Positions 18,890-54,035 of a DNA stretch of 55,164 nucleotides are shown piece by piece; positions within the stretch are counted from its first letter, which is position 1, and every line of letters starts with the position of its first letter. The DNA is taken from positions 1-55,164 of the IMG/VR virus record IMGVR_UViG_3300046466_000192; one strand, written 5' to 3'. A program made the translations under genes and the position numbers. This stretch comes from a virus (Duplodnaviria > Caudoviricetes). A model generated the notes under the pieces. It saw nothing but the letters and a program-made list of their open reading frames with translations. It did not search any database and was not told the origin of the DNA.

Positions 18890-21800
18890 ATGCCAGAAAT
18901 TAAACACCACTTTCGCGCAGGTAAAATGAATAAAGACCTGGACGAAAGATTAGTTCCTAATGGTGAATATAGACACGCATTGAATGTGCAGGTAGCAACA
19001 TCTGAAGGTGATGATGTTGGAGCTTTACAAAACGTGCTTGGAAATCAACAAGCGAGTAATGTTATGCCTACCGGCGCTAAGTGTATAGGCACTATAGCGG
19101 ACGAGGAAAACGATAAAATATACTGGTTTGTTCAAAGAACAAATCAAGTAAACGCAATACTGGAGTATCACAACGGTGCTGTAAACCCTGTCTTAATAGA
19201 TACTAATAACGTATTGCAATTTAGACCGTCAACATTAATAACTGGAATAAACATAATAGACGGTTTATTATTCTTCACAGATGACAACTCAGAACCTAAG
19301 GTTATAAACATAGAAAAATTTAAAGAGGGTTGTACAGATTTCTCAACACACACACAATTAATAGATCAAAACGGAGCAGCTTATAACTTCGTAGAAGAAG
19401 ATGTTACTGTTATTAAAAAAGGACCAACAACTGCTCCTGTTCTGTTCATGTCACCCACAAAAAGATTTAAACCTTTTCCACAAAACCAAGATAGTAATGG
19501 TAATCCAGTCCCTGGCGTAGTTGAAACAACAGCTACATTTAACGTTACTAATAGTGATGGTTTAGTAGAAATAGGTAGTCAAATTCAAATAACCGTTTAT
19601 GGCACGAATTGGCAAACAGGTGATACTGTTATAGCTACAGCTGGTGAAGACGGTGATGTTTTTGATGACGAGTATGGTGTTAGCTTTATTGTAAACAACG
19701 TAATAGCTGAAGATGATGACGAGCAATTAGTTGTATTAATAGTTCAATCAGCTACTAATACACAACCAACAACATCGGTTTCTTGGAACTTAAAACTTAA
19801 ACAAGATGATCCTTTGTTTGAAAAAGATCTTGTTAGGTTTGCTTATAGATATAAATATAAAGATGGTGAATATTCTTGTTTTTCTCCATTTACTCAAGTT
19901 GCTTTTTTACCAGGAACTTTTGAATATGACCCAGCACAAGGATATAATATCGGTATGGTTAACAATTTAAGATATTTAAAAATATCTGGATTTAGACCAA
20001 GCGACATACCAAAGCAGGTTGTTGAAACAGAGTTGTTATTTAAAAAAGAAGAAAGTACCAATATATACAGTGTTAAAAGTTTTAAAACAACTAGTGAAGG
20101 TTGGGGTAATAATTCTTACATAATAGAGTCTGAAATAATATATAAGATTCTTCCTTCTATGCAGTTATTAAGACCTTTTGACAACGTGCCGTTAAAAGCA
20201 AAATCGCAAGAGTTGGTTGCTAATAGAATAGTCTACGGAAACTACTTACAACAGTTTGATTTAGTTGACTCGCAGAATAGTGAAATAGACATGGATTTTA
20301 CTAGCTTTTTAGATCCACTGGGTTTTACTAGTTTAACAACAGTAGAACAAGACTCTTTACCACCACCTGAAAAATCTATAAAATCAATGAGAACATATCA
20401 GTTAGGCGTTGTTTATAGAGATGAGTATGGTAGAGAAACACCTGTGCAAACAGATCAAACTGGAAGTATAGTTGTCAATAAAGCGTCAGCTGCTAGCTTT
20501 AGTAGATTAAATGTAAAAGTTAATAATAGTGCTCCTGCCTTTGCAAGTAGTTTTAAGTTTTTTGTAAAAGACACATCTAACCAATATTACAACTTAGCTC
20601 AAGATAGATGGTATGACGCAGAAGATGGAAACGTATGGTTATCTTTTCCTTCTTCAGAAAGAAACAAAGTCGACGAAGAAACTTTTTTGATACTAAAAAA
20701 GAAACACGACGATGATGGACTTGTAACAGATTCTGCTAAGTATAAAATTATAGATATATCCAACGAGGCGCCTGTAGAGTTGAAAGAAATAAAAGCTTCT
20801 TATGGTGTGGCTACACATAGCTTTGCAGCACTTTATGGTGGTCCAAATGAAAGTGGCTTTCCTAGGCCCGAAGCTACTTATTTTTCTTTCAAACTTAGCG
20901 ATTGGAAAGCTAATCGTGGAGACGACGGTAGTACATCTGGTGGTTCTGAAATATTATCTACGTCTAATTTAGTTGTTAGAATAGTTGCTCCTGGTAAAAA
21001 AAGTAGATGGTATGATGTAGGAAATATATCTCTTACAGGTGCACATGGTACAACCAAAGATCTTCAAATTAACTTACAAGGAAGATTCGAAAATGATGTA
21101 GTGCAGTTTTACCCGGACGGCACTTTAAGTAGTGAAGTAAGCAACATTGGTTATGAAATAGCTAGAATAGAAACAAAAAACAAGCCAGAGTTTACTGGTA
21201 GGTTTTTTGTGAAAGTATATAAAGACGCTGCTTTAATAAAAAACATTTTAGAAGGAAACGCTACTGAAGAGTATGCTATAGTTAATTCAACACCTGTTAG
21301 TATACCAAGAAAAGATTGTGGCGGAAGACGTAACAAAGGTCACTGGGAACACAATGGCCAAAACGAAACAAGACAATTAAAATGGCACATGACTGGTTGT
21401 GGTCCTAATAGAATAAAAAACGATCTTGAAGGATCTGGTATGGGTCAAAGTTGGGCTGTTCCTCTTACGTCTAAAAGTGCTTGGAACTCTTCAGATGAAA
21501 AAATAGCACCTATAAGAATAGGTAGAGATACTGTTCAAATTGGTTTTGCCGCTGAAAGAAGCTTGTCTGGAATAAGAGGTAATGATAATGGTTTATATAG
21601 AGACTTTTTAGATAGAATAACTAGCGCTGGAACTAAAATAAGGTTTGCTGATGACCCAAACCAAAATGTGTACGAAATAAAATCACATGTAAGTAGAAGT
21701 TTCCGTAACTTCTTTTATGGTAGTAATAACCCTCAAGATAGTTGGTGGACAAACAAAAGAAGAGTTTTTATAATTAAATTAGATAGACCAGTTCAAGACT

Positions 21801-23206
21801 GGGATATTTTTACAGATGATCCCAACGGTATAAACCCTACATCTTCAAGAAGAACGGTTTGGGAAATTGTAGAAGACTATCAATCTGAAGCTTACAGAAC
21901 AAAAAACCCGGCTATATGGGAGACTGAGCCTAAAGAACAAGCTGAGTTAGATATATATTACGAAGCTAGTAATTCTATACCTATTTCTCAACACAATAAC
22001 AACCACGCTTTAGAATATCACAACTGTTTTAGTTTTGGTAATGGCGTAGAATCAAATAGAGTTAGAGATGATTTTAATCAACCGTTTATTAAAAAAGGTG
22101 TAAAAGCATCTGCACCACTAGCAGAACAATACAACCAAGAAAGAAGAAAAAATGGTTTAATATATTCTCAAATATATAATTCTATATCTGGTTTAAATGG
22201 AACTAATCAGTTTATAATGGCTGATAAAATAACGAAAGATTTAAACCCTGAGTATGGTAGTATACAAAAACTACATGTTAGAGGTACAGATATTTTAGCT
22301 TTGTGTGAAGACAAAGTTGTTAAAATACTAGCTAATAAGGATGCTTTGTTTAATGCAGACGGTAATGCAAACGTTACGGCGTCAAGCAACGTTTTAGGTC
22401 AAGCTATAATACCACCTACTTTTGGAGAGTTTGGTATAAGTAAAAACCCTGAAAGTTTTGCTGCAGATGGATATAGATGTTACTTCACAGACAGAGCTAG
22501 AGGAGCTGTATTAAGATTATCTATGAACGGTATTGTTAAAATATCTGACTATGGTATGTCAGACTATTTTAGTGATTCTTTAAAAAATATAACATCAGCT
22601 ATAGGTTGTATTAATGTTCAACAAGGTGTTTATTCTTTAACTTTAAATAGAAAGCCAGGTTACCAAGAGGTTGGTGGTGAAACTATAAACTTTAAAGAAG
22701 ATGTACAGGGTTGGACTAGCTTTGCTTCTTACATACCAGAACAGGGTGTATCTATAAACGACGAGTTTTACACTTTTAAAAATGGTGAAATATACTCACA
22801 TGATAATGATACTAGAAATAACTACTACGGTGTTCAATATCAAAGTAGTGTTAAGTTACTATTTAATGATATGCCTGATCAAGTGAAAACATTTAGAACT
22901 TTAAACTATGAAGGATCACAGGCTAAGTGGAATCAAAATTTAAATGATAATCAATATTATAATAATGTTGCTAAAAATGGTTGGTTTGCTAGTTCTGTAG
23001 AAACAGACATGCAGTCTGGCTTTGTAAAAGAGTTTGTTAAAAAAGAAGGTAAGTGGTTTAATTATATACATGGAACTAGAACAGATTTATCAAATATAGA
23101 TACTTCAGAGTTTTCTGTTCAAGGTATAGGTCAATTAAGCGGATCTGTAACTGGTGATACTACTCCAACTCAAGTAACAATAACAATTGTAGAAAATAAC
23201 GATTAA
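18890..23206 (+). CDS. Tail nozzle/muzzle (stabilization) protein
   Basis: 1438 aa; GKMNKDLDERLVPNGEYR start, RFAYRYKYxDGEYS, FGISKNPESFA, KEGKWFNYI; beta-propeller-like. Confidence 0.7.
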   Translation: MPEIKHHFRAGKMNKDLDERLVPNGEYRHALNVQVATSEGDDVGALQNVLGNQQASNVMPTGAKCIGTIADEENDKIYWFVQRTNQVNAILEYHNGAVNPVLIDTNNVLQFRPSTLITGINIIDGLLFFTDDNSEPKVINIEKFKEGCTDFSTHTQLIDQNGAAYNFVEEDVTVIKKGPTTAPVLFMSPTKRFKPFPQNQDSNGNPVPGVVETTATFNVTNSDGLVEIGSQIQITVYGTNWQTGDTVIATAGEDGDVFDDEYGVSFIVNNVIAEDDDEQLVVLIVQSATNTQPTTSVSWNLKLKQDDPLFEKDLVRFAYRYKYKDGEYSCFSPFTQVAFLPGTFEYDPAQGYNIGMVNNLRYLKISGFRPSDIPKQVVETELLFKKEESTNIYSVKSFKTTSEGWGNNSYIIESEIIYKILPSMQLLRPFDNVPLKAKSQELVANRIVYGNYLQQFDLVDSQNSEIDMDFTSFLDPLGFTSLTTVEQDSLPPPEKSIKSMRTYQLGVVYRDEYGRETPVQTDQTGSIVVNKASAASFSRLNVKVNNSAPAFASSFKFFVKDTSNQYYNLAQDRWYDAEDGNVWLSFPSSERNKVDEETFLILKKKHDDDGLVTDSAKYKIIDISNEAPVELKEIKASYGVATHSFAALYGGPNESGFPRPEATYFSFKLSDWKANRGDDGSTSGGSEILSTSNLVVRIVAPGKKSRWYDVGNISLTGAHGTTKDLQINLQGRFENDVVQFYPDGTLSSEVSNIGYEIARIETKNKPEFTGRFFVKVYKDAALIKNILEGNATEEYAIVNSTPVSIPRKDCGGRRNKGHWEHNGQNETRQLKWHMTGCGPNRIKNDLEGSGMGQSWAVPLTSKSAWNSSDEKIAPIRIGRDTVQIGFAAERSLSGIRGNDNGLYRDFLDRITSAGTKIRFADDPNQNVYEIKSHVSRSFRNFFYGSNNPQDSWWTNKRRVFIIKLDRPVQDWDIFTDDPNGINPTSSRRTVWEIVEDYQSEAYRTKNPAIWETEPKEQAELDIYYEASNSIPISQHNNNHALEYHNCFSFGNGVESNRVRDDFNQPFIKKGVKASAPLAEQYNQERRKNGLIYSQIYNSISGLNGTNQFIMADKITKDLNPEYGSIQKLHVRGTDILALCEDKVVKILANKDALFNADGNANVTASSNVLGQAIIPPTFGEFGISKNPESFAADGYRCYFTDRARGAVLRLSMNGIVKISDYGMSDYFSDSLKNITSAIGCINVQQGVYSLTLNRKPGYQEVGGETINFKEDVQGWTSFASYIPEQGVSINDEFYTFKNGEIYSHDNDTRNNYYGVQYQSSVKLLFNDMPDQVKTFRTLNYEGSQAKWNQNLNDNQYYNNVAKNGWFASSVETDMQSGFVKEFVKKEGKWFNYIHGTRTDLSNIDTSEFSVQGIGQLSGSVTGDTTPTQVTITIVENND

Positions 23207-27658: not shown

Positions 27659-30600
27659 ATGGAAGAATTAGAATTAATTGTTGACCGAATGATAAAAGCC
27701 GGTGAGCCAGAAGAGGCTATTGCTGGAGTAGTTAAGAGTTACACATCGGGAAAGACATCAGACCCAGTAATAAAGGAGGCGAGTACCGGGTCAAAAGAAG
27801 ATACGGCCTCACAATCGGAAGATACTTTTTCGGAATCACCGTTTTGGAACCACGATGAGACCCAAGAAAAACAAGGTTATTTTGAAGAAACTTTTGGTAA
27901 AGGGCTTTTAACAAACTTAGCAGATGACTTTACAAGAATCATTGGTGGTGGTAATGCTCAGGGAGCTGGTGTAAATGAAGCTTTTGATTTATACAAGTTT
28001 GGTCCTGAAATGACAGACGAACAATATCAAGATTTAATTGACGCGTCTAGAAGATTAGAAGAGTATGGTCAAACAGATGAGATGATATACGCTAGCCAGC
28101 AGTATGAAAAATACAAAAAAGAAGGAGATGGTGGTGTTAAAGCTTGGTTAAAAGCTTATATTACTTTAGACAACCCAACAGCTCTACCTCAATACATGGT
28201 TCAGTCTCTTGTTGGTATGGGTAGGTCTTTAGTAGATTCAGAAGAGGTTGCTGGTTTTGCCGCAGCAGGTGCTGGAACTGGTGCTGGTTTAGGCGCAGGT
28301 GGTGGAGCTGCTGTTGGATCTGTTTTTGCGGGAGTAGGTGCTGTTCCCGGTGCTGCGATTGGTGCTAAACTTGGTGCTGTGTCTGGTTTTATGGGTGGTT
28401 TATCAGGTGCTATGGAAACTTCATTAACAACAATGGATCTAGTTAGAGAGAAAGCAATTGAAAACGGTGTTGATTGGAGTAATTCTACAGACGAGCAAAG
28501 AATACAAGCTATAAAAGACATAACAAACAACAAAGAATCTTTTGATGATTTAAAAAGCAAAGCATTAGCAAGAGGTGTAACCATAGGTGTTATAGATGCC
28601 GCAACTGGTGTTGTTACAATGGGTGCTGCAAAAGGTGTTGGAGGACTTACTACTAAAAGCGTTTTAAGCTCAGCTACTAAGCCTTTATCCGCCACAGCTG
28701 CTGCTATAACTGAATCTGGTGGTGGTATAGCTAGTGAGTATTACGGTCAAAAAGCAGCGGGTCAAGAGTTCAATCTTGAAGAAATAATGATAGAAGGCTT
28801 CGCGGATAAAACATTTACAACCGTAGGCATAGCAAAAGGAGCTTTCACTGGTTCACCCAAGTATTCTATAAACGGTGAAACAATGAATGGTAAAAAGTTT
28901 CACGATGCCATAAAGCTAATGGATGACGAGGCTTATGTATCTGCTGATATAAAAGTAGAAAATTCTCCAGCTGTAGAAAGAGTTGTAAATAACAGGCGTA
29001 GTAATATAAATTTAGATCAAAAGGTAGATAGTAGAATAAATAACAGCGATGATAGATCAACGGTTATAAAGTTGATGAAAGAACAAAAGTCTTTAAATAA
29101 AAATAAAGAAGGTAACGCTAGTAGATTAGCTGAGATACAAGAAGAGATAAATACTATAAATGAAAAATACAAAGGCAACAAGGTAGATGTTACTATAGAA
29201 CAAAGAAAACAAGCTGTAGCAAAAGCTATAGATGATAAATTTGAAGCATCGTTTAATAAAAACTTAAAAGCTGTCAAAGAAGCCGCGGCTAAAAAAGATA
29301 CAACCATAGATGTATTTGAAGATGATGACGCTTACTATAATAAGATAGCGGAAAATCAAAATATTACTCCACAAGAGGCTAAAACAAAAGCAAAAGGTAG
29401 TGACGGTGTTTTTGTAGGTAAAGGTCAGATATTCATAAATAAAGCTCAAGCTAAAAAAGTTGGAGCTGTTGGAGTAGCAAGTCATGAATTTTTACACCCT
29501 GTGTTGAACGCCGCTATAGGCAATAGTAAACAACAGGGTAAAATTGTTTCTGATTTTAAAAAATCATTAACTAGCAAACAAAGAGCTTATGTAGATAAAA
29601 AGCTTAAAGCAAACTACGATCCTTCACAGTGGGACACTGAGTATTTAAATATATTTTCTGATGGTATACAAAATGGTGATATAAACTATGATCAAACGTT
29701 GTTTGAAAAGATAGGTGAATCAATAAAAAGATTTTTTGTAGGTCAAGGTTTTGATAATATATCATTTGATAGTGGTAGAGACGTATACAACTTCTTAAAA
29801 GAGTACAATACTAGTATTAAAAAGGAGGGTAAAGTTAGCAAAAAAGCTATGGATGCTATAACAGCAGCTGAGCAAAAGACTGGTAGAAAAGTTGGCAGCG
29901 TTGAAACCGTTGGTAACATGCAGATGTCAAGAACAGAAGACGTTGCTGAGGTAAATAGAATATACGAGGCAAACGAAAATAAAGATATTGCTGGTTTTGA
30001 AATAGCTGATAAGTATAGAGGTATGGCTGAGTCTACTTTTAAATCACTAAGAGATGGTTCTAACTACACTAACGATCAAAAAGATGTACTAGATCAGAAT
30101 AAAGAAGATATAATAGCTATGATGCTTTATGATAAAATACCTAGTCAAAAAGAAACATCAAAAGCTAGAAACGTAGTTGGTTTAGTTAAAGACTTTGTAA
30201 AAGAAAAGCAAAAATATAGAAACGTTGCGGCTTATATAAATACATTTTTTAAAGAAAGATCAAAAGAAGCTTTTAAATACTATGTTAAGGATGCTGTATT
30301 AGAAGGTATGACAACTGAAGATGGTACTCTTAAATCATCTGTTGCTAAAAAAACATCAAAACAGAGTAGTGTAAACCAGGGTAAAGAAGCTAGGAAGTTA
30401 ACCAGCTTTGACAAATTAAAATCTAAAAAAGAATCTTTTTTAACACCAGCTTTAAAAAAATCTATATTTAACGAAGTATCAAAAAATATAAAACTAGTTG
30501 TAGCTAAAACAGGAACTAACCTACAATCAGCTATTAACTCTATGGAAAGCATAGTTAATAACGAGGTTAGAAAAATAGTAACTAAAGACTTAGGTAATAT

Positions 30601-33600
30601 AAGTAAAAAGAAAGGTGAAGTTGTTATTGACGCTAATTATGAATTACATCTTAGAGAAAACTATGATATAAGTATAGCCGCTTTACCTCTTGATGTTATA
30701 AAAAAGTCTTACGGAAAGCTTTTTAATTTAACTAAAACTGGTAGAGAAAAAACAGCTGTAGGTAAAGGTACTTTTCAAATGACAAAGCCTAGTAAAATAG
30801 ACTGGATAAAACATCACACGGTTGGAGGTTACACTACTTTGTTAGCTAGACAAAAAACATATGCTACAAGTATATCTAATGAGTTTGTTAAAAACGAACT
30901 TATAAAACTAAAAAGTGATCCTGTCTTTATGAACGAATTAGCTGATATTGCTAATTTAAGTCAGTCAGATGTAAACGTGACAGCAATAGAAGCTTCTATA
31001 GATAAACTAATAAATGCTTTAGATAGAAAAAAAGGAGAAGCAAAAGGTTTTGACACAACACTTCAGTTTTCAATAACAGAAAATCAAGCTCAAGATATAA
31101 TACAAAACAAAGAGGCTATATTAGAAGGTATAAGACAACTAGGTGATTCTATTACAAGTAGTACGGTTGGCTTAATGCTTAATAAAACCCTAGACCCAGG
31201 TGTTTGGACGTCTAAAGATGTAGCTAACTACAGAGCGGCAATAACAAAAGCTATAACAAAGTTTGTTAAATATGAAGATCAAAATGTTGATTTAAGTAAA
31301 ATGATACTTGAAGAGGTTGCTACAGATTCAGTGGCAACTAATTTGTCTAGAATATTTAATCTAAATTCATTAGATATAGTTGTAAATGGTATTACTCAAA
31401 AGTTTAAAAACTTTGGTCAAATATTTACACTTAAAAAATACGTTTCAAGACAAAGAAATCATTACTTATCTTATGCCGATGAAACTATAAACAGTGTAGA
31501 TGATGTAATAAATCATTTAAAACACTTTAGAGGCCACATGACTAGTGCTGGTAAAAAATATTTTTTAGTAAAAAGAAACCAAATATTTTCAGGAAACCAA
31601 GATTATATAGATAGTTTAAATAAAATATTAGAGCCTAAAAGTATTCGTATAAATGCAGTAACTAAAGGTAATGGAACAAGTATTTTAAGCATAACAGATT
31701 TAGATGGTAATATACTTGAAATTACTGATTCAGAAGGAAACGCTACTGTTTTAAATGAAAAAGGTGTAAAAGCAGCTATAACAACACCGGCTCAATCTGG
31801 TTATGTAGGCAGTGGTAAAACTAAAAGGGTTAAGAGTAAACAAGCTTTTAAAGATGAACTTGATATTAGAAAAAAATCTGCGGACGAAGCTTGGAATAAT
31901 CTAATAAGTTTATTAACCTATATAAAGAAAAACGGTAGTCCACTTGATTTTGCTATGACCATGATGAGTTTAAAATCTAATATGGCTAGTATGTTAAAGG
32001 CTGCGGCGCCTGTAGAATATTATTTTGTTGGGCCAAATGTTGATACTGTTGTTTACGAGCATATAATACCTACTGAATATATAGTGTTAAAACTAACTCA
32101 GCATTTTTATGGCGCTCCTATAGACTTAAACGCTTTAAAAGATAGATATAAAGTGGCTATAGTTCCAGAAATTATGGATAACAACATAAATATACAAAGA
32201 CAAAAGGTCATGCCTGCTTACTGGAACGAGTCTATGCACGAAACTTTAAGGTATTTTGATGAGTTAACTCTTGGTATGAACAACATGTTTGTTATAGAGT
32301 CTTTAACTGATGGTGTTAAATATGGCGAAAATCATGCTAAAGTGTCTAGCTTGCAGTTTTCTAGAACAAATTTAGAAAAACAAACAATGTTAAATAAAGC
32401 AATACAGATAGCTAGAAATCCTTTTGCACCTGAAAAAGGTATTAGTGTATTTGATTTTGACGACACTATAGCTAGATCAAATAGCAAAGTTAGTTATACT
32501 CTTCCTGATGGAACTCAAGGTAAGATAAATGCTACTGAGTTTGCTTTACAGTCTGCGGATCTTGAAGCTGCTGGTGCTACGTTTGATTTTAGCGAGTTTA
32601 ACAAAGTTGTAGAAGGTAAAAAAGGTCCTTTATTTGACCTTGCTATGAGACGACAAGATAAGTTTACAAGTAAAGACATTTTTATATTAACAGCAAGACC
32701 ACAAGAAGCCGCGATAGCAATACACGCTTTTCTAAAAGGATTAGGTCTTACTATACCTATAGAGAATATAACAGGTTTGGCAGATGGTAGGCCATCAGCT
32801 AAGTCTGATTGGATAATAAGTAAGGCGGCTGAAGGTTATAATAATTTTTATTTTGCTGACGACGCTTATAAAAACGTGAAAGCTGTTCAAGATGTTTTAG
32901 ATGTAATAGATGTAAAAAGAGATGTTCAACAAGCTAAACTACAGTTTTCTAGAACAATGGAAGAACAGTTTAACGACATACTAGAACAAACAAAAGGAGT
33001 TAAGTCTGAAAAAAGATTTTCCGACGCAGCAGCTAGATCAAGAGGTAAAGACATTGGTAAGTGGAAGTTTTTCTTACCACCATCAGCAGAAGACTTTGTA
33101 GGTTTAATATATAGCTTTTTAGGAAAAGGCAAAGTTGGTGAAGCTCAAATGGAGTTTTTTAATAAAACTCTTGTTAAACCATTTGCTAGAGCAATGGACG
33201 AGTTGAATAGAACTAAACAAGCTTTAGCTAATAACTTTAGAGCTCTTAAAAAAGCGTATCCAGAGGCTGCTAAAAAATTATCTAAGATAACACCTTATAA
33301 CAATTTTACCTATAGTACAGCTGTTAGAGTTTACATATGGACTAAAGCAGGTATTACGATACCAGGATTATCTAAAACAGATATAAAAAGATTAAATGAA
33401 ATAGTACAAAACGATAAAGAGCTTAAACAGTTTGCTGATGCTATTGATTTAATGACAAAGGAAAGAGGTTTTCCTGCGCCTGGTGAAAACTGGTTAGTGG
33501 GTAACTTAGCAACAGATATAAAAGATATAACCGATAAAGTAGGTAGAAAAGAGTTTTTAGCAGAGTGGATAGCAAATAAAGAAGTTATATTTAGCAAAGA

Positions 33601-35017
33601 AAATTTAAACAAAATAGAGGCTATATATGGTAGTAATTTTAGAGAAGCACTTGAAGATATGCTCTATCGTATGGAAAATGGCACAAATAGGAACTTTGGT
33701 AAGAACAGATTAGTTAATTCTTTCTCAAATTGGGTGAATAATAGTGTAGGTGCTATAATGTTTTTTAACATGAGATCAGCTATACTTCAAACTATATCTT
33801 TTGTTAACTTTATAAACTGGAGTGACAACAACCCTTTGAATTTTGCTAAAGCTATATTAAACACTAAACAGTTTTCTAAAGATTTCGTAACTTTATTTAA
33901 CTCAGACATGCTTAAGCAAAGAAGATCTGGTATTGGTAGAGATGTAAACGAATCTGAGATAGCCGAGGCAATGAGCGGTGCTAGAAACAAACCTCAAGCT
34001 ATATTAAATTATTTGCTCAGAATAGGTTTTACACCAACGCAAATAGCGGATAGCTTTGCAATATCTATGGGTGGAGCTGCTTTTTATAGAAACAGAATAA
34101 ATACATACCTAAAACAAGGTATGACACAGGAGCAAGCTTTAGATCAAGCTTTTAAAGACTTTCAAGAAACTACTGAAGTTTCTCAGCAGTCTTCAAGACC
34201 TGATATGATTAGCCAGCAGCAAGCTGGTCCACTAGGTAGATTAATATTAGCTTTTCAGAATACACCTATGCAGTACACTAGATTAATAAAGAAGGCTTTT
34301 CTTGATTTAATGGCTGGTAGAGGCGATGCTAAAACTAATATGTCTAAAATTTTATACTACGGAGCTGTGCAAAACTTTATATTTGCAGCAATGCAATCAG
34401 CTTTATTTGCAATGCTATTTGACGACGATGAAGATGAAGATAAGTATGGTAAAAAGAAAACTAGAATAGCAAACACAATGACAGATTCTATACTTAGAGG
34501 TTCTGGTATATTTGGAGCTGGTATTTCAACTATGAAAAATATGATATTAAAATTCATGGAACAAGAAGAAAAAGGTTGGAATGCTGATCACGCTTACACG
34601 GTGATAGAAGCGGCTAACTTATCACCACCTATTGGTTCTAAACTAAGAAAATTATATTCTGGTATACAAACATATAAATTTAATAAAGACGTAATATCAC
34701 ATAAAGGTTTTAGCTTAGACAATCCTATATTGCAAACAGGTGGTAATGTGGTTTCAGCTATAACAAATATACCTTTAGATAGAGTTGTTAACAAATACAA
34801 TAATTTAAGAGGAGTTGCTAATAGTAAAAACGAGAGCTGGCAAAGACTAGCCATGCTGCTAGGTTGGAACTCTTGGGATGTTGACGCTGAAATAGATCCT
34901 GAACTTGAAGGTTTAAAAAAGAGATTAAAAAAGAGAAAAAAGTTAAAGAAAAAAATATCAGCTTCTGAAAAAGCTAGAAGAGACGCTATAAGAAAAAAAT
35001 ACTACCAAAATAACTAA
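27659..35017 (+). CDS. Giant multidomain ejection (polyvalent) protein
   Basis: 2452 aa: G/A-rich hydrophobic N-region, zincin HEFLH (aa 609), EHIIP motif, HAD domain DFDDT/TAR/K/DD, LPD38-like helical C-terminus (AFQNTPMQY). Confidence 0.8.
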   Translation: MEELELIVDRMIKAGEPEEAIAGVVKSYTSGKTSDPVIKEASTGSKEDTASQSEDTFSESPFWNHDETQEKQGYFEETFGKGLLTNLADDFTRIIGGGNAQGAGVNEAFDLYKFGPEMTDEQYQDLIDASRRLEEYGQTDEMIYASQQYEKYKKEGDGGVKAWLKAYITLDNPTALPQYMVQSLVGMGRSLVDSEEVAGFAAAGAGTGAGLGAGGGAAVGSVFAGVGAVPGAAIGAKLGAVSGFMGGLSGAMETSLTTMDLVREKAIENGVDWSNSTDEQRIQAIKDITNNKESFDDLKSKALARGVTIGVIDAATGVVTMGAAKGVGGLTTKSVLSSATKPLSATAAAITESGGGIASEYYGQKAAGQEFNLEEIMIEGFADKTFTTVGIAKGAFTGSPKYSINGETMNGKKFHDAIKLMDDEAYVSADIKVENSPAVERVVNNRRSNINLDQKVDSRINNSDDRSTVIKLMKEQKSLNKNKEGNASRLAEIQEEINTINEKYKGNKVDVTIEQRKQAVAKAIDDKFEASFNKNLKAVKEAAAKKDTTIDVFEDDDAYYNKIAENQNITPQEAKTKAKGSDGVFVGKGQIFINKAQAKKVGAVGVASHEFLHPVLNAAIGNSKQQGKIVSDFKKSLTSKQRAYVDKKLKANYDPSQWDTEYLNIFSDGIQNGDINYDQTLFEKIGESIKRFFVGQGFDNISFDSGRDVYNFLKEYNTSIKKEGKVSKKAMDAITAAEQKTGRKVGSVETVGNMQMSRTEDVAEVNRIYEANENKDIAGFEIADKYRGMAESTFKSLRDGSNYTNDQKDVLDQNKEDIIAMMLYDKIPSQKETSKARNVVGLVKDFVKEKQKYRNVAAYINTFFKERSKEAFKYYVKDAVLEGMTTEDGTLKSSVAKKTSKQSSVNQGKEARKLTSFDKLKSKKESFLTPALKKSIFNEVSKNIKLVVAKTGTNLQSAINSMESIVNNEVRKIVTKDLGNISKKKGEVVIDANYELHLRENYDISIAALPLDVIKKSYGKLFNLTKTGREKTAVGKGTFQMTKPSKIDWIKHHTVGGYTTLLARQKTYATSISNEFVKNELIKLKSDPVFMNELADIANLSQSDVNVTAIEASIDKLINALDRKKGEAKGFDTTLQFSITENQAQDIIQNKEAILEGIRQLGDSITSSTVGLMLNKTLDPGVWTSKDVANYRAAITKAITKFVKYEDQNVDLSKMILEEVATDSVATNLSRIFNLNSLDIVVNGITQKFKNFGQIFTLKKYVSRQRNHYLSYADETINSVDDVINHLKHFRGHMTSAGKKYFLVKRNQIFSGNQDYIDSLNKILEPKSIRINAVTKGNGTSILSITDLDGNILEITDSEGNATVLNEKGVKAAITTPAQSGYVGSGKTKRVKSKQAFKDELDIRKKSADEAWNNLISLLTYIKKNGSPLDFAMTMMSLKSNMASMLKAAAPVEYYFVGPNVDTVVYEHIIPTEYIVLKLTQHFYGAPIDLNALKDRYKVAIVPEIMDNNINIQRQKVMPAYWNESMHETLRYFDELTLGMNNMFVIESLTDGVKYGENHAKVSSLQFSRTNLEKQTMLNKAIQIARNPFAPEKGISVFDFDDTIARSNSKVSYTLPDGTQGKINATEFALQSADLEAAGATFDFSEFNKVVEGKKGPLFDLAMRRQDKFTSKDIFILTARPQEAAIAIHAFLKGLGLTIPIENITGLADGRPSAKSDWIISKAAEGYNNFYFADDAYKNVKAVQDVLDVIDVKRDVQQAKLQFSRTMEEQFNDILEQTKGVKSEKRFSDAAARSRGKDIGKWKFFLPPSAEDFVGLIYSFLGKGKVGEAQMEFFNKTLVKPFARAMDELNRTKQALANNFRALKKAYPEAAKKLSKITPYNNFTYSTAVRVYIWTKAGITIPGLSKTDIKRLNEIVQNDKELKQFADAIDLMTKERGFPAPGENWLVGNLATDIKDITDKVGRKEFLAEWIANKEVIFSKENLNKIEAIYGSNFREALEDMLYRMENGTNRNFGKNRLVNSFSNWVNNSVGAIMFFNMRSAILQTISFVNFINWSDNNPLNFAKAILNTKQFSKDFVTLFNSDMLKQRRSGIGRDVNESEIAEAMSGARNKPQAILNYLLRIGFTPTQIADSFAISMGGAAFYRNRINTYLKQGMTQEQALDQAFKDFQETTEVSQQSSRPDMISQQQAGPLGRLILAFQNTPMQYTRLIKKAFLDLMAGRGDAKTNMSKILYYGAVQNFIFAAMQSALFAMLFDDDEDEDKYGKKKTRIANTMTDSILRGSGIFGAGISTMKNMILKFMEQEEKGWNADHAYTVIEAANLSPPIGSKLRKLYSGIQTYKFNKDVISHKGFSLDNPILQTGGNVVSAITNIPLDRVVNKYNNLRGVANSKNESWQRLAMLLGWNSWDVDAEIDPELEGLKKRLKKRKKLKKKISASEKARRDAIRKKYYQNN
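32354..32957 (+). repeat. 16-nt direct repeats flanking HAD domain
   Basis: CAGTTTTCTAGAACAA at 32354-32369 and 32942-32957, both in frame (QFSRT). Confidence 0.8.
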
Positions 35018-47939: not shown

Positions 47940-48698
47940 TTACAGATAATCAAGCACTTGCGAGTGGTCTACACTTTCTATTAATTTATCTACAGCTTGC
48001 TTTTTTATCTGTGAAACTCTAACGTAAGAACTACTACCTTTTATACCTAGTTTAGAAGCTATGTCTTTAGCAGAATGTTTATCGCAGTCTAAACCATAAC
48101 TTAATCTTAGTATATTGTATTCAAGCTCTGACAAATGTTTTTTCAACAATCCGGTTAAATATACGTTTAATATTTCTTGATTGTATGGCTCCGATTTATC
48201 AGGTATATCATACATAGAATTTTCATCCATTAAAGGTTTATCATCTATGCTTAAAAATATGCTATTAAAAAACATAGCAACCATCTTTTCGTCTTTACCA
48301 AAGTTCTTACGTATCTCGTTAAGTTTGTGTTCTGGTATTCGTATGTCACCTCTGTTCATATCAATGGATCTTCTTATTGCTCCTTTAATACGTTTACTAA
48401 AAAAAGATTTTAATGTTTTTTCATAATCCTCTGATTTTTCTAAAGTAGGCCAGTCAAGTCTGTCAACTGCTTTAGTTAACCCACTACTACCTGATTGTAT
48501 TAAATCCATTATTGTCTGCACACCTGAAGCCTGTTGGCTTGTTGAAAATTTTCTAGCTAAAGACTCTACTAAAGGCATAAACTTAGTTATTAATTGGTCT
48601 CTATTACAATCCTTCCAGGATAAATGTTCTATTCTAGCTAAAGCTTGTTTTAAGTCTTGCTTATACCTTATATAATTCTGTATGTTATATTTCTTCAT
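47940..48698 (-). CDS. Phage sigma70-family RNA polymerase sigma factor
   Basis: Region 2 LVESLARKF..DLIQSGSSGLTKAVDR..RIKGAI, IRIP; region 4 ILRLSYGL...DIA..LG..RVSQI. Confidence 0.88.
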   Translation of the reverse strand: MKKYNIQNYIRYKQDLKQALARIEHLSWKDCNRDQLITKFMPLVESLARKFSTSQQASGVQTIMDLIQSGSSGLTKAVDRLDWPTLEKSEDYEKTLKSFFSKRIKGAIRRSIDMNRGDIRIPEHKLNEIRKNFGKDEKMVAMFFNSIFLSIDDKPLMDENSMYDIPDKSEPYNQEILNVYLTGLLKKHLSELEYNILRLSYGLDCDKHSAKDIASKLGIKGSSSYVRVSQIKKQAVDKLIESVDHSQVLDYL

Positions 48699-51909: not shown

Positions 51910-51924
51910 AATTTATAATTTTTG

Positions 51925-51998
51925 GTGCGCAGGGTGGATTCGAACCACCGACCTCTAGCTTATGAGGCTAGCGAGCTGGCCAACTGCTCTACCGCGCA
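51925..51998 (-). tRNA. tRNA with CAT anticodon (Met/fMet or Ile2)
   Basis: Cloverleaf: TGCGCGG/CTGCGCA acceptor, GAGC/GCTC D-stem, CTAGC-CTCATAA-GCTAG anticodon arm, GGTGG-TTCGAAT-CCACC T arm. Confidence 0.9.
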
Positions 51999-53439: not shown

Positions 53440-53455
53440 GTTTATTATTTAATTA

Positions 53456-53487
53456 TATTATCCAATTGTATTCGTATTTAGTTTGTA
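53456..53487 (-). promoter_or_regulatory. Early promoter repeat copy 2
   Basis: TACAAACTAAATACGAATACAATTGGATAATA (31/32 identical to copy 1). Confidence 0.75.
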
Positions 53488-53491
53488 ATAG

Positions 53492-53570
53492 TGGACGTGG
53501 CAGGAATCGAACCTGCGTTACCGGGTTTAGGTGACATTTCTCCCGCTTCCGGTCTAACCATTTCACGCCC
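53492..53570 (-). ncRNA. tmRNA tRNA-like-domain-only RNA (alanine identity)
   Basis: GGGCGTG/CACGTCC acceptor with G3:U70 and A73; stemless D-loop AAATGGTTAGAC; CCGG/CCGG helix; GCAGG-TTCGATT-CCTGC T arm; no anticodon arm and no tag ORF. Confidence 0.65.
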
Positions 53571-53573
53571 ATA

Positions 53574-53777
53574 AAGCAGTAATAAGATGCACGTCATTTA
53601 CCGGTGTGTACCCTGACTTATACTTACTACTGCTTATGCTAGCAATTCACTTATGTGTTAAAGTTACAAGGTGTCTGTTCTCGCCTACTTTAACCTAATT
53701 AAGCTACTCGTCTAGTTATTTTAAGTAAACCAAACCGGCCTCAATTGTAACACTTGCCGGAAGTATTAAAGTTACTT
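53574..53777 (-). ncRNA. Cluster of three stem-loops (candidate small RNAs)
   Basis: Stems 53574-53586/53623-53635, 53657-53664/53687-53694 and 53735-53739/53756-53760 in a 200-nt non-coding gap. Confidence 0.35.
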
Positions 53778-53787
53778 GAGTGTAGGT

Positions 53788-53976
53788 TTACTTACGCCGC
53801 CAAGCTCTGTGCACAGATGCGCTAACTTCTTGGCTGACAATTTGTATTGTATTGCCCGTTTTGTGCTCAATGATAGGGACATACGAGTATGTTTTAGTTG
53901 TTGAACACTTCACACAAGTTTTATATCCCAGTTCTAAACGGACAGGGTGTACGGTTTTACCACATCTACAATACAT
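53788..53976 (-). CDS. DksA/TraR-type C4 zinc-finger-like protein
   Basis: CRCG...RLELG..TCVKC. Confidence 0.6.
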   Translation of the reverse strand: MYCRCGKTVHPVRLELGYKTCVKCSTTKTYSYVPIIEHKTGNTIQIVSQEVSASVHRAWRRK

Positions 53977-54003
53977 AGTTATTTATTTTATTTGTTACGT
54001 ATA

Positions 54004-54035
54004 TATTATCCAATAGTGTTCGTATTACTTTTGTA
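54004..54035 (-). promoter_or_regulatory. Early promoter repeat copy 3
   Basis: TACAAAAGTAATACGAACACTATTGGATAATA. Confidence 0.7.

What the first reader, a model, noticed from the sequence alone, without database searches (positions are those of the whole stretch)
53492..53570. Mini-tmRNA: tRNA-like domain only, no mRNA domain
Seen (- strand): GGGCGTG AAATGGTTAGA CCGG-n24-CCGG TAAC GCAGG TTCGATT CCTGC CACGTCC A (CTA). It has G3:U70 and A73, a stemless D-loop ending GG..AGAC, a P2-like helix with a short connector and a perfect T arm. Known: these are the hallmarks of the tmRNA TLD recognised by AlaRS and SmpB; bacterial tmRNAs have about 250 extra nt with a tag ORF, while some mitochondrial ones lack it. 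Inference: an early phage RNA acting as an SmpB/EF-Tu decoy that disables trans-translation, a tag-free ribosome rescuer, or a decoy for tRNA-targeting defences. CCA would need to be added by the host.
Basis: partly seen in the sequence, partly recalled or inferred. Interest (0 to 1): 0.8.

Follow-up and report, generated by a model that had tools for sequence, protein, structure and literature searches.

The report
Phage gene for tag-less mini-tmRNA
A marine phage carries a small RNA gene that copies only the tRNA-like end of the bacterial ribosome-rescue RNA (tmRNA) and lacks its coding part; this kind of RNA was known from one other phage, and here it turns out to belong to a large, conserved phage family.

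Summary
Window 53492-53570 (- strand) encodes a 79-nt RNA. It has a 7-bp acceptor stem with G3:U70 and A73, a stemless GG D-loop, a 5-bp P2 helix capped by a 24-nt hairpin, a perfect T arm and a CUA trailer. There is no room for a tag ORF.

- **Family match:** Rfam's tmRNA model matches both ends (35.6 bits, below the cut-off of 47). ARAGORN calls nothing there.
- **Context:** The window is a 55-kb marine phage contig related to Flavobacteriia podophages.
- **Conservation:** A model built here finds the element in 51 of 80 ligase-anchored relatives, on the same strand 1-3 kb upstream of the ligase. G3:U70 is kept in 44 of 48 distinct copies and the helices covary.
- **Origin:** Viral full-length tmRNAs share the same acceptor stem. 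Five complete relatives have only the mini form.
- **Precedent:** Mycobacteriophage DS6A has the same architecture (checked here), and published work reports that it inhibits tmRNA in E. coli.

So this is a new member, and a large new family, of a known kind. Function is inferred, not shown: most likely it is alanylated, binds SmpB and competes with host trans-translation. One further finding: the internal region is a mosaic of mobile structured modules.

The parts
53564..53570 (-). Acceptor stem, 5' strand GGGCGUG (G1-G7); G3 lies at 53568
   Evidence: It pairs 7/7 with 53493-53499. In relatives, 3:70 is G:U in 44 of 48 distinct copies and 4:69 covaries (CG/AU/GC/UA).
53554..53563 (-). D-loop analogue AAAUGGUUAG, with no D stem; it holds A8, the GG pair and a G that aligns with the last G of the Rfam tmRNA consensus 'GGaUUCG'
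   Evidence: alignment. Among 106 unique family members, GG is present in 98 and A8 in 100.
53549..53553 (-). P2 helix, 5' strand ACCGG
   Evidence: All P2 pairs show changes on both sides in relatives.
53525..53548 (-). 24-nt cap of P2 (AAGCGGGAGAAAUGUCACCUAAAC), an irregular hairpin that stands where a tmRNA has its pseudoknots and tag ORF
   Evidence: The same module occurs in L135 inside a TLD and in L238 in another context. It is too short and too structured for a resume codon plus tag.
53520..53524 (-). P2 helix, 3' strand CCGGU
53517..53519 (-). Junction AAC before the T stem; the A is invariant in alignment A1
   Evidence: A53 invariant. 'AC' precedes the T stem in 97 of 106 unique members. 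It matches 'AC' of the Rfam tmRNA consensus.
53500..53516 (-). T arm GCAGG-UUCGAUU-CCUGC
   Evidence: It is 100% paired in relatives, and 3 of 5 pairs covary.
53493..53499 (-). Acceptor stem, 3' strand CACGUCC; U70 lies at 53495
53492..53492 (-). Discriminator A73
   Evidence: A is the discriminator in all 39 rows of A1.
53489..53491 (-). 3' trailer CUA; CCA is not encoded
   Evidence: The trailer is CTA in 80 of 106 unique members. The phage tRNA-Met genes and DS6A's element end the same way.

Best explanation
The element is a real phage gene for a CDS-less, TLD-only tmRNA. It descends from the full-length tmRNAs that related phages carry. It keeps the acceptor stem with the alanine identity pair G3:U70 and A73, the stemless GG D-loop, the base of helix P2 and the T arm. 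The pseudoknots and tag reading frame are replaced by a short hairpin. The rest is inferred. The RNA is probably cut out of a longer transcript by the host's tRNA-processing enzymes (RNase P at G1, 3' trimming, CCA addition) and then charged with alanine by host AlaRS. It is then probably bound by host SmpB, and EF-Tu with it. With no template to resume on, it would compete with host tmRNA for SmpB and for stalled ribosomes. That would damp SsrA tagging, and the mRNA and protein decay that goes with it, during infection. I put identity as a selected TLD-only tmRNA homologue at about 0.9. I put the competitor mechanism specifically at about 0.45.
For: - **Anatomy and model match:**
- **Conservation with synteny:** model R1 finds the element in 51 of 80 ligase-anchored viral loci at E<=1e-5. 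All are on the ligase strand, 0.9-2.8 kb upstream, as in the window.
- **Selection on structure:** 93.9% of cells are paired, against 36-57% with partners slid. 0 of 500 shuffles reach the covariation score.
- **G3:U70:** it is kept in 44 of 48 distinct copies and is never G:C, while neighbour 4:69 varies (CG 35, AU 6, GC 3, UA 1, UG 1). Among 106 unique short members it is kept in 101.
- **Not a tRNA:** ARAGORN of 51 as tRNA.
- **tmRNA ancestry:** viral contigs hold full-length tmRNAs with the identical acceptor GGGCGUG/CACGUCC and normal tags (L093 ANKNQFALAA, L103 GNYNLALAA). The 360-nt tmRNA of Cellulophaga phage phi38:1 has a 5' end close to the mini form of L003 and the same ...CCA-CUAA end.
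- **Only tmRNA-like gene:** five relatives rated 100% complete have only the mini form, with no RF00023 match over the cut-off.
- **Precedent checked here:** DS6A 28478-28560 has the same plan (G3:U70, GG..GAC loop, 5-bp P2, ~20-nt cap, T arm, A73, CUA) and scores 43.2 bits.
- **Literature (passages read):** a TLD-only molecule like DS6A's strongly inhibits tmRNA, perhaps by titrating SmpB (PMC4131195), and does so when expressed in E. coli (PMC11915505). A passage in PMC3895274 implies peptidyl transfer to a TLD-only tmRNA in vitro. SmpB contacts the D-loop and variable-loop elbow, including G19 and A334 (PMC8363625).
Against: - **No expression evidence:** the RNA-library contigs laid on the region cover only 53489-53527, from a relative.
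- **Sub-threshold score:** the RF00023 score is below the gathering score, and such sub-threshold matches also occur in archaea in the tool's control.
- **CCA** is not encoded.
- **Exceptions to G3:U70:** 4 of 48 copies (5 of 106 unique) have A3:U70, which should abolish alanine identity. Alanylation is therefore not universally required.
- **SmpB-contact region:** it is only partly tmRNA-like. 'GG..GAC' occurs in 35 of 106 members.
- **Signs of a function beyond the TLD:** the internal region is built from conserved, mobile, structured modules that also occur outside TLDs. Neighbouring anticodon-less tRNA-like elements have non-alanine acceptor stems.
- **No partner gene:** the window has no SmpB gene, and 10 neighbouring ORFs match no Pfam family.
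- **Host:** it is only inferred.
- **Source paper:** the experimental paper behind the inhibition claim (Mao et al. 2009) is not held, so I rely on two citing papers.
Confidence: 0.6

Rival explanations
1. Tag-free ribosome rescuer. The alanyl mini-tmRNA with SmpB enters stalled ribosomes and takes over the nascent chain. The peptidyl-RNA is then released (drop-off with Pth, or an ArfB-type factor). Ribosomes are freed without marking phage proteins for proteolysis, as proposed for CDS-less mitochondrial tmRNAs.
For: It rests on the same TLD features and G3:U70 conservation. A passage in PMC3895274 implies peptidyl transfer to a TLD-only tmRNA in vitro. PMC11915505 argues that CDS-less mitochondrial tmRNA, conserved together with SmpB, still helps cells deal with incomplete mRNAs. 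The complete relatives carry no full-length tmRNA.
Against: The only experimental report cited for this kind of molecule is inhibition, not rescue (PMC4131195, PMC11915505). No release factor, Pth or ArfB-like gene was seen among the 10 neighbours scanned. The host already has its own tmRNA.
Confidence: 0.2
2. tRNA-like chassis. The TLD mainly serves as a processing and stability scaffold (RNase P, CCA enzyme, exonuclease protection). It carries interchangeable structured RNA modules, which are the real effectors. Alanine identity would be inherited baggage or a secondary feature.
For: Internal regions range from 0 to about 110 nt and are mosaics of recurring modules, sometimes nested inside each other's loops. 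Each of 9 modules tested occurs inside TLDs in some loci and outside them in others (some loci are duplicates of one contig). The pseudoknot module at window 53735-53781 lies outside the TLD here but inside it in L100 and L019, and its loop-to-tail pairing covaries (CCGGC/GCCGG, CCAGC/GCUGG, GCUGC/GCAGC). Other anticodon-less tRNA-like elements with non-alanine acceptors sit nearby. Five of 106 unique members have A3:U70.
Against: G3:U70, A73, the GG loop and the 'AC' junction are far better conserved than a mere scaffold needs. The window's own insert is only 24 nt. DS6A's TLD-only molecule is reported to act on trans-translation.
Confidence: 0.13
3. Decoy for host nucleases or defences. The small tRNA/tmRNA-like RNA soaks up RNase R, tRNA-targeting nucleases or CRISPR-associated nucleases.
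For: PMC11662646 (passages read) shows that a phage anti-CRISPR works through fragments of host tRNAs and tmRNA of about 90 nt that bind RNase R and Cas10-Csm. The element sits among small unknown ORFs upstream of the replication genes.
Against: It has no anticodon loop for anticodon nucleases to cut. Nothing in the window links it to a defence system. There is no test.
Confidence: 0.05
4. Non-functional remnant: either an attP-type fragment of a host tmRNA gene or a decaying tRNA or tmRNA pseudogene.
For: Phages often carry the 3' parts of tmRNA genes as attachment sites (PMC9004378, PMC11590407, passages). The neighbouring tRNA-like 'element U' really is truncated in the window.
Against: Both halves of the acceptor stem are present and pair perfectly. 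The window has no tyrosine integrase (PF00589). Among 185,579 species genomes, the 3' end sequence gives 29 stretches. The mini forms lie only on MAG contigs, so it is not a host tmRNA end. The helices covary across relatives whose ligase is 58-98% identical.
Confidence: 0.02

Closest known systems
TLD-only (CDS-less) tmRNA of Mycobacterium phage DS6A (tmRNA Website entry; Hudson, Lau & Williams 2014, PMC4131195; PMC11915505; Mao et al. 2009, not seen)
   Same: Checked here. It is about 80 nt, with a 7-bp acceptor carrying G3:U70, a stemless loop with GG...GAC, a 5-bp P2 closed by a ~20-nt cap, 'AC' before a 5-bp T stem with loop UUCGAUU, A73 and then CUA. Its RF00023 match spans model 1-374 below the cut-off (43.2 bits against 35.6 here). 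It is phage-encoded and not annotated in the GenBank record.
   Different: There is no sequence relationship beyond the TLD consensus. DS6A is a high-GC actinobacteriophage and this is a 34% GC marine podophage-like contig. DS6A stands alone in the literature I saw. This one belongs to a family of at least 106 distinct sequences with variable, modular inserts and a fixed genomic position.
Full-length phage tmRNAs (Cellulophaga phages phi38:1 and Calle; viral contigs L093, L096, L099, L103, L128)
   Same: They share the acceptor stem (GGGCGUG/CACGUCC in the viral contigs), the T arm, the GG-U-rich D-loop, the 'GAC' junction and the CUAA trailer. These are probably the ancestors.
   Different: They are 244-401 nt, and ARAGORN predicts a tag ORF in each, some with a normal ...ALAA end. 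The window's RNA has 24 nt in that place.
CDS-less organellar tmRNAs (jakobid and oomycete mitochondria; ~65-bp Mallomonadaceae plastid genes), PMC11915505
   Same: They are reduced to little more than the TLD, with no tag frame, and are presumed to still work with SmpB.
   Different: They are organellar, mostly permuted two-piece genes, and arose by genome reduction. Here the reduction happened in a virus that infects a host with a complete system. I made no sequence comparison.
tRNA-Ala and alanine minihelices
   Same: They share G3:U70, A73, the acceptor stem and the T arm.
   Different: The element has no D stem and no anticodon arm. ARAGORN and the Rfam tRNA model do not call it, and the tmRNA model outscores the other clan members.
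Stable tRNA-like small RNAs of phage tRNA clusters (T4 species 1 and 2 RNAs), and RNase P-released tRNA-like RNAs such as mascRNA (both recalled from memory, not checked)
   Same: They are small tRNA-like RNAs without decoding function, made by tRNA-processing enzymes from longer transcripts.
   Different: Neither is a tmRNA TLD homologue as far as I recall. This is only an analogy for the 'scaffold/processing' rival.

Membership tests
tmRNA (Rfam RF00023), tRNA-like domain | 7-bp acceptor stem with G3:U70 and discriminator A73 (alanine identity) | tested here: met
   G:U occurs at 3:70 in 44 of 48 distinct relatives and in 101 of 106 unique sequences.
tmRNA (Rfam RF00023), tRNA-like domain | T arm (5 bp, 7-nt loop) directly stacked on the acceptor, preceded by 'AC' | tested here: met
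   'AC' is present in 97 of 106 members. The T stem is 100% paired with covariation.
tmRNA (Rfam RF00023), tRNA-like domain | D-loop analogue without a D stem, holding GG and the SmpB-contact G (G19 in E. coli numbering, PMC8363625) | tested here: inconclusive
   The GG and a following G align with the Rfam consensus in the window. Across the family, GG is present in 98 of 106 members but 'GG..GAC' in only 35 of 106. My mapping to E. coli G19 is an inference.
tmRNA (Rfam RF00023), tRNA-like domain | Helix P2 leaving the TLD between the D-loop and the T arm | tested here: met
   It is 5 bp in the window. All modelled P2 pairs change on both sides in relatives.
tmRNA (Rfam RF00023), whole molecule | Score at or above the curated gathering score (47 bits) | tested here: not met
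   The score is 35.6 bits. This is expected when 326 of 374 model positions are absent. DS6A's accepted TLD-only form also falls short, at 43.2 bits.
tmRNA (Rfam RF00023), whole molecule | mRNA-like domain with a resume codon and a tag reading frame ending in a stop | tested here: not met
   Only 24 nt lie between the P2 strands. ARAGORN finds no tmRNA here and of 51 relatives, with an implausible tag.
tmRNA (Rfam RF00023), whole molecule | Pseudoknots PK1-PK4 | tested here: not met
   The window's element has none. A separate pseudoknot-like module lies upstream at 53735-53781.
tmRNA (functional definition) | Charged with alanine by AlaRS; bound by SmpB and EF-Tu; enters stalled ribosomes | not testable with these tools
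   This needs biochemistry. No SmpB gene is present in the window, so a host SmpB would have to serve.
CDS-less / TLD-only tmRNA (DS6A type) | Complete TLD, under about 100 nt, no tag frame, phage-encoded | tested here: met
   Side-by-side reading with DS6A 28478-28560.
CDS-less / TLD-only tmRNA (DS6A type) | Inhibits endogenous trans-translation when expressed | not testable with these tools
   This is reported for the DS6A-like molecule in passages of PMC4131195 and PMC11915505. The original paper is not held.
tRNA (RF00005) | Cloverleaf with D stem and anticodon arm | tested here: not met
Phage attP fragment of a tmRNA gene | Only the 3' part of the host gene, next to an integrase, identical to the host sequence | tested here: not met
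   Both halves are present. There is no PF00589 match. The sequence is rare in bacterial genomes and occurs there in MAG contigs or unrelated phyla.

The most novel reading that the evidence does not exclude
The TLD is a chassis. These phages may use a tmRNA-derived, alanine-identity tRNA-like shell to mature, stabilise and perhaps deliver a swappable set of small structured RNA modules (hairpins and at least one covarying pseudoknot). Delivery could be to SmpB, EF-Tu or the ribosome. The modules recombine between TLDs, other anticodon-less tRNA-like shells and free-standing positions in the same region upstream of the replication genes. That would be a natural 'tRNA-scaffold' system for an exchangeable arsenal of RNA effectors, with the window's 24-nt hairpin as one cassette.
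Probability: 0.15. Interest if true: 0.8.

Novelty: new member of a known kind. Interest (0 to 1): 0.55.

Why it matters
The largest current tmRNA database lists only 9 'standard, no CDS' sequences among 97,179, and 79 phage sequences in all. It screened RefSeq viruses only (PMC11915505). Here one marine phage lineage alone yields at least 106 distinct CDS-less forms. They hold a fixed genomic position, and complete genomes in the lineage have no full-length tmRNA. ARAGORN misses almost all of them, calling 1 of 51. This shows that losing the coding part of tmRNA is a recurrent and selected viral strategy, not a curiosity of one mycobacteriophage. It also provides a natural series for study, from 47 to 185 nt and on to full-length forms of 244-401 nt. 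That series could be used to ask what a TLD alone does to trans-translation during infection. The modular inserts hint at a wider repertoire of phage small RNAs that has not been studied.

Tried and rejected
- **Ordinary or decaying tRNA:** rejected.
- **Hidden tag ORF:** the 24-nt insert can be read as a 6-codon frame ending in TAA. That frame lies inside the predicted hairpin, far too close to the TLD, and is seen only in near-identical copies. Rejected.
- **Permuted or two-piece tmRNA:** the RF04321 match is weak (10.7 bits, E 8.5), and P2 is closed by a hairpin. Rejected.
- **attP fragment or lysogeny:** there is no PF00589 match and both halves are present. Rejected.
- **Phage-encoded SmpB:** none found.
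- **Neighbouring proteins as clues:** 10 ORFs had no meaningful Pfam family; the only match is below its cut-off. Four of them also had no PHROG.
- **Cultured relatives:** R1 gave only 19-26-bit matches in 3 of 5 records and none in the other 2 (MW202828.1, elemoE_6-9C, phi13:2, phi38:1, Calle_3). The three I read were a tRNA-Asp, the 3' end of phi38:1's full tmRNA and an odd tRNA-like stretch. blastn of the 82 nt against 50,697 phage records gave 108 records, none covering 80% or more of the query; the 40 listed cover 34-48% and lie on tRNA genes, attP sites or unannotated DNA. The ligase was useless as an anchor in that collection, with every match under 60% identity.
- **Expression:** the only RNA-library data are assembled contigs. 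They cover 53489-53527 (one 270-nt contig of a relative, oligo-dT library) and leave 53528-53601 uncovered. This says nothing either way.
- **Rfam on a relative's whole RNA region (L004 4500-9400):** it found only the tRNA-Met and the mini-tmRNA, and no family for 'element U' or the modules.
- **Tools and papers not available:** Mao et al. 2009 is not held. Supplements of the tmRNA database paper, which might list further CDS-less phage forms, could not be seen.
- **Prior description:** searches found no description of this family. The one TLD-only phage case in print that they turned up is DS6A.

Full report
**What is there.** On the - strand, window 53570-53492 reads GGGCGUG / AAAUGGUUAG / ACCGG / 24 nt / CCGGU / AAC / GCAGG-UUCGAUU-CCUGC / CACGUCC / A, followed by CUA. 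The acceptor stem has seven pairs with G3:U70, and the discriminator is A. There is no D stem and no anticodon arm. ARAGORN and Rfam at curated thresholds report only a tRNA-Met(CAU) at 51924-51998. At E-value thresholds the Rfam tmRNA model matches from its first to its last position, replacing 326 internal positions with 35 nt. It scores 35.6 bits against a gathering score of 47 (E 1.3e-12 for the 701 nt searched) and beats 3 overlapping matches to families of the same clan. The single-sequence fold gives the expected acceptor, P2 plus hairpin, and T arm, with a modest z-score of -2.1.

**Where it sits.** The window is an IMG/VR virus record of 55,164 bp, rated 85% complete, with about 34% GC. 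Its terminase, portal and virion proteins belong to families of Flavobacteriia podophages. The terminase is 62% identical to an uncultured freshwater podovirus, 45% to Flavobacterium 'elemo' phages and 38% to Cellulophaga phages. DNA runs that hold the stretch are labelled seawater metagenomes. The element lies in the minus-strand block that holds ribonucleotide reductase, primase-helicase, exonuclease, a sigma-like factor and a DNA ligase. It sits among small ORFs with no family. Upstream is a 62-aa Cys-rich ORF (53976-53788), followed by 217 nt of non-coding sequence. A 25-nt motif (AATACGAAyACwATTGGATAATATA) occurs before that ORF (54002-54026) and again 11 nt after the CUA trailer (53454-53478). 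Its 12-nt core occurs exactly at these two places only. I read this as two promoter-like sites bracketing a transcription unit whose last feature is the mini-tmRNA. That reading, and 'early' timing, are inferences.

**Relatives.** The ligase 2.3 kb downstream recovered 80 viral loci with 58-98% identity. A covariance model (R1) was built from 39 short members using the acceptor, four P2 pairs and the T arm. It finds one strong match (38-80 bits, E<=1e-5) in 51 of these 80 loci. All matches are on the ligase strand and, where the flank is complete, 0.9-2.8 kb upstream of the ligase. About ten of the 29 loci without a match have too little upstream sequence to judge.

In the 48 distinct sequences, 93.9% of cells pair, against 36-57% when partners are slid, and 0 of 500 shuffles reach the covariation score. 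Position 3:70 is G:U in 44 and A:U in 4, and never G:C. The neighbouring pair 4:69 is C:G 35, A:U 6, G:C 3, U:A 1 and U:G 1. That alignment is fitted to the model, and the sequences are related, so these numbers lean towards the structure. The independent MAFFT alignment gives the same picture.

An exact-pattern scan for the 3' end found 110 further viral stretches. R1 gives 90 matches in the first 100 of these and 28 matches in the remaining 9 plus 29 bacterial stretches. A script with an explicit definition was run over all loci: G1, G2, 7/7 acceptor pairing, a 5-bp T stem, loop TTCRANN and A73. It yields 131 unique sequences.
- 18 are tRNAs by ARAGORN.
- 7 are longer than 200 nt.
- 106 are short (47-185 nt) and are not tRNAs.

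Among the 106 short forms:
- G3:U70 is present in 101.
- The trailer is CUA in 80.
- 'AC' precedes the T stem in 97.
- GG is present in the loop in 98.

Many of these came from a pattern that fixed the 3' strand, so their acceptor uniformity is partly by construction. ARAGORN calls none of the 51 ligase-anchored elements a tRNA, and calls one a tmRNA with an implausible tag.

**Descent from tmRNA.** Viral contigs with the identical acceptor stem carry full-length tmRNAs that ARAGORN calls with normal tags: L093 (244 nt, ANKNQFALAA) and L103 (GNYNLALAA), plus L096, L099 and L128. Cellulophaga phages phi38:1 and Calle_3 have a 360-nt tmRNA. Its 5' end (acceptor plus GG-U-rich loop plus GAC) closely resembles the mini form of L003, and it ends ...CCA-CUAA like the mini forms; PMC8776804 mentions one tmRNA in Calle. 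Five relatives rated 100% complete (64-72 kb) each have the mini form (27.5-37.2 bits with RF00023) and nothing over the tmRNA cut-off. So in these phages the mini form is the only tmRNA-like gene. Among one genome for each of 185,579 prokaryote species, the 3' end pattern occurs in 29 stretches. Mini-type matches there (67 bits or more) lie only on MAG contigs labelled Bacteroidetes (2) or on small contigs of one 'Aliivibrio' MAG (4). The others I checked are full-length tmRNAs of Chloroflexi-type and other MAGs, or tRNAs. The sequence is therefore viral, not a copy of the host's tmRNA end. With no integrase in the window, an attachment-site origin is excluded.

**Comparison with what is known.** Hudson, Lau and Williams list 'Mycobacterium phage DS6A (TLD only)'. 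They write that a similar molecule, chargeable or not, strongly inhibits tmRNA, perhaps by titrating SmpB (PMC4131195, passages). The 2025 tmRNA database paper repeats that the DS6A form inhibits endogenous tmRNA in E. coli. It counts 9 'standard, no CDS' sequences among 97,179, with 79 from phages, after screening RefSeq viruses only. It also describes CDS-less mitochondrial and plastid forms (PMC11915505, passages). I located DS6A's element at 28478-28560 (43.2 bits, also below the cut-off and unannotated) and read it. It has the same plan as the window's RNA, down to the CUA trailer. The window's element is thus a new member of a known kind. What appears new is the size, synteny and diversity of this marine family. 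Five literature searches found no description of it. Supplementary tables that I could not open might list more.

**How it probably works.** What the data show is a conserved, structure-constrained TLD with alanine identity elements. The rest is inferred. The phage tRNA-Met genes have the same non-CCA trailer, so the RNA is probably matured by the same host enzymes and given CCA. G3:U70 and A73 should then allow alanylation. The elbow (GG loop, following G, junction A) corresponds to the surface that SmpB contacts in E. coli tmRNA (A15, U17, G19, A334; PMC8363625), although only the junction A and the GG are well conserved here. A passage in PMC3895274 implies that a TLD alone can receive the nascent peptide in vitro. 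With no template, the most economical outcome is competition with host tmRNA for SmpB and for stalled ribosomes, which matches the reported behaviour of the DS6A-type molecule. A productive, tag-free rescue is the main rival.

**What does not fit neatly.** The region between the P2 strands ranges from nothing (a 47-nt form in L032) to about 110 nt. It is built from recurring modules that can be nested in one another's loops. Each of nine modules tested is found inside TLDs in some loci and outside them, nearby on the same strand, in others (some loci duplicate one contig). The window's own 24-nt cap recurs in L135 and, in a different shell, in L238. A pseudoknot-like module lies upstream of the TLD in the window (53735-53781) but inside the TLD in L100 and L019, and its loop-to-tail pairing covaries. 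The same region in relatives also holds other anticodon-less tRNA-like elements with non-alanine acceptors:
- a roughly 90-180-nt 'element U', whose 5' part survives as a remnant at window 53694-53714;
- 47-nt acceptor-plus-T-arm minihelices.

Four of 48 copies have A3:U70. These facts leave room for the bolder reading that the TLD is a chassis for exchangeable RNA cassettes.

**Expression.** Only assembled contigs of RNA libraries were available. One 270-nt contig of a relative covers the 3' half (53489-53527), and the rest of the element is uncovered. This neither supports nor refutes transcription.

**Verdict.** Identity as a TLD-only tmRNA is well supported. Function is inferred by analogy. 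It is a new member of a known kind, and of moderate to high interest because of the scale of the family and the modular inserts.

Noticed in passing
window 53454-53478 (-) and 54002-54026 (-): A 25-nt repeat, AATACGAAyACwATTGGATAATATA. Its 12-nt core occurs exactly at these two places only (26 matches at up to 2 mismatches, against 15 expected). One copy lies about 25 nt before the Cys-rich ORF and the other lies 11 nt after the mini-tmRNA trailer and 14 nt before the next ORF. It may be a phage promoter. The phage also encodes a sigma-like protein at 47940-48698.
   Followed up: partly
window 53735-53781 (-), with a closing stem to about 53725-53789: A stand-alone pseudoknot-like module (ACUCAAG...UUGAGGCCGG). 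The loop CCGGC can pair with the downstream GCCGG. In L100 and L019 the same module sits inside a mini-tmRNA, and this pairing covaries (CCAGC/GCUGG, GCUGC/GCAGC).
   Followed up: partly
window 53694-53714 (-); intact copies at L004 7285-7462, L008 7502-7668 and L027 2470-2749: The 5' remnant (UAGACGAGUAGCUUAAUUAGG, present in 14 loci) of a second anticodon-less tRNA-like element ('element U'). Intact copies have a T arm and a CUAGUUA acceptor strand. In the window its 3' half is deleted. It matches no Rfam family.
   Followed up: partly
L017 7662-7708, L019 7930-7976, L018 7467-7513, L051 7096-7142, L061 6151-6197, L012 7847-7893, L032 4065-4111: 47-nt 'minihelix' genes: a 7-bp acceptor, the conserved linker CUACGGUACUAARGN and a T arm. 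They have varied acceptor sequences. Only the L032 copy has the mini-tmRNA's G3:U70 stem.
   Followed up: partly
window 51924-51998 (-): A tRNA-Met(CAU) with an unusual U1:A72 first pair, discriminator C and no encoded CCA. A tRNA-Met(CAU) is the only canonical tRNA in 30 of 51 related loci. Whether it acts as an initiator, an elongator or an Ile2-type tRNA was not examined.
   Followed up: no
window 53792-53868: Very short metatranscriptome contigs with high word depth (about 90-390) in two runs of two studies. They cover the 3' end of the 62-aa Cys-rich ORF (53788-53976). The cause is unknown. It could be an abundant relative's transcript or a conserved RNA.
   Followed up: no
L159, L119, L179, L181, L157, L191, L232: Some contigs carry two mini-tmRNA paralogues with different internal modules, sometimes in tandem within about 100-500 nt.
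   Followed up: no
window 1357-7350, 18890-23206 and 27659-35017 (+): Three giant ORFs of 1997, 1438 and 2452 aa. The first has tail-fibre domains, the second matches a virion structural protein family, and the third was not scanned.
   Followed up: partly
JN698994.1 28478-28560 (L236 1501-1583): DS6A's published TLD-only tmRNA lies in the gap between gp33 and gp34 and carries no feature in the GenBank record. It also ends A-CUA.
   Followed up: yes
MW202828.1 532-630 (L198): The closest GenBank relative by terminase has an odd 99-nt tRNA-like sequence right after a small zinc-ribbon gene. It has an acceptor stem, a D arm, a T arm and a long internal insert. ARAGORN does not call it, and it is not a mini-tmRNA (24 bits with R1).
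   Followed up: partly
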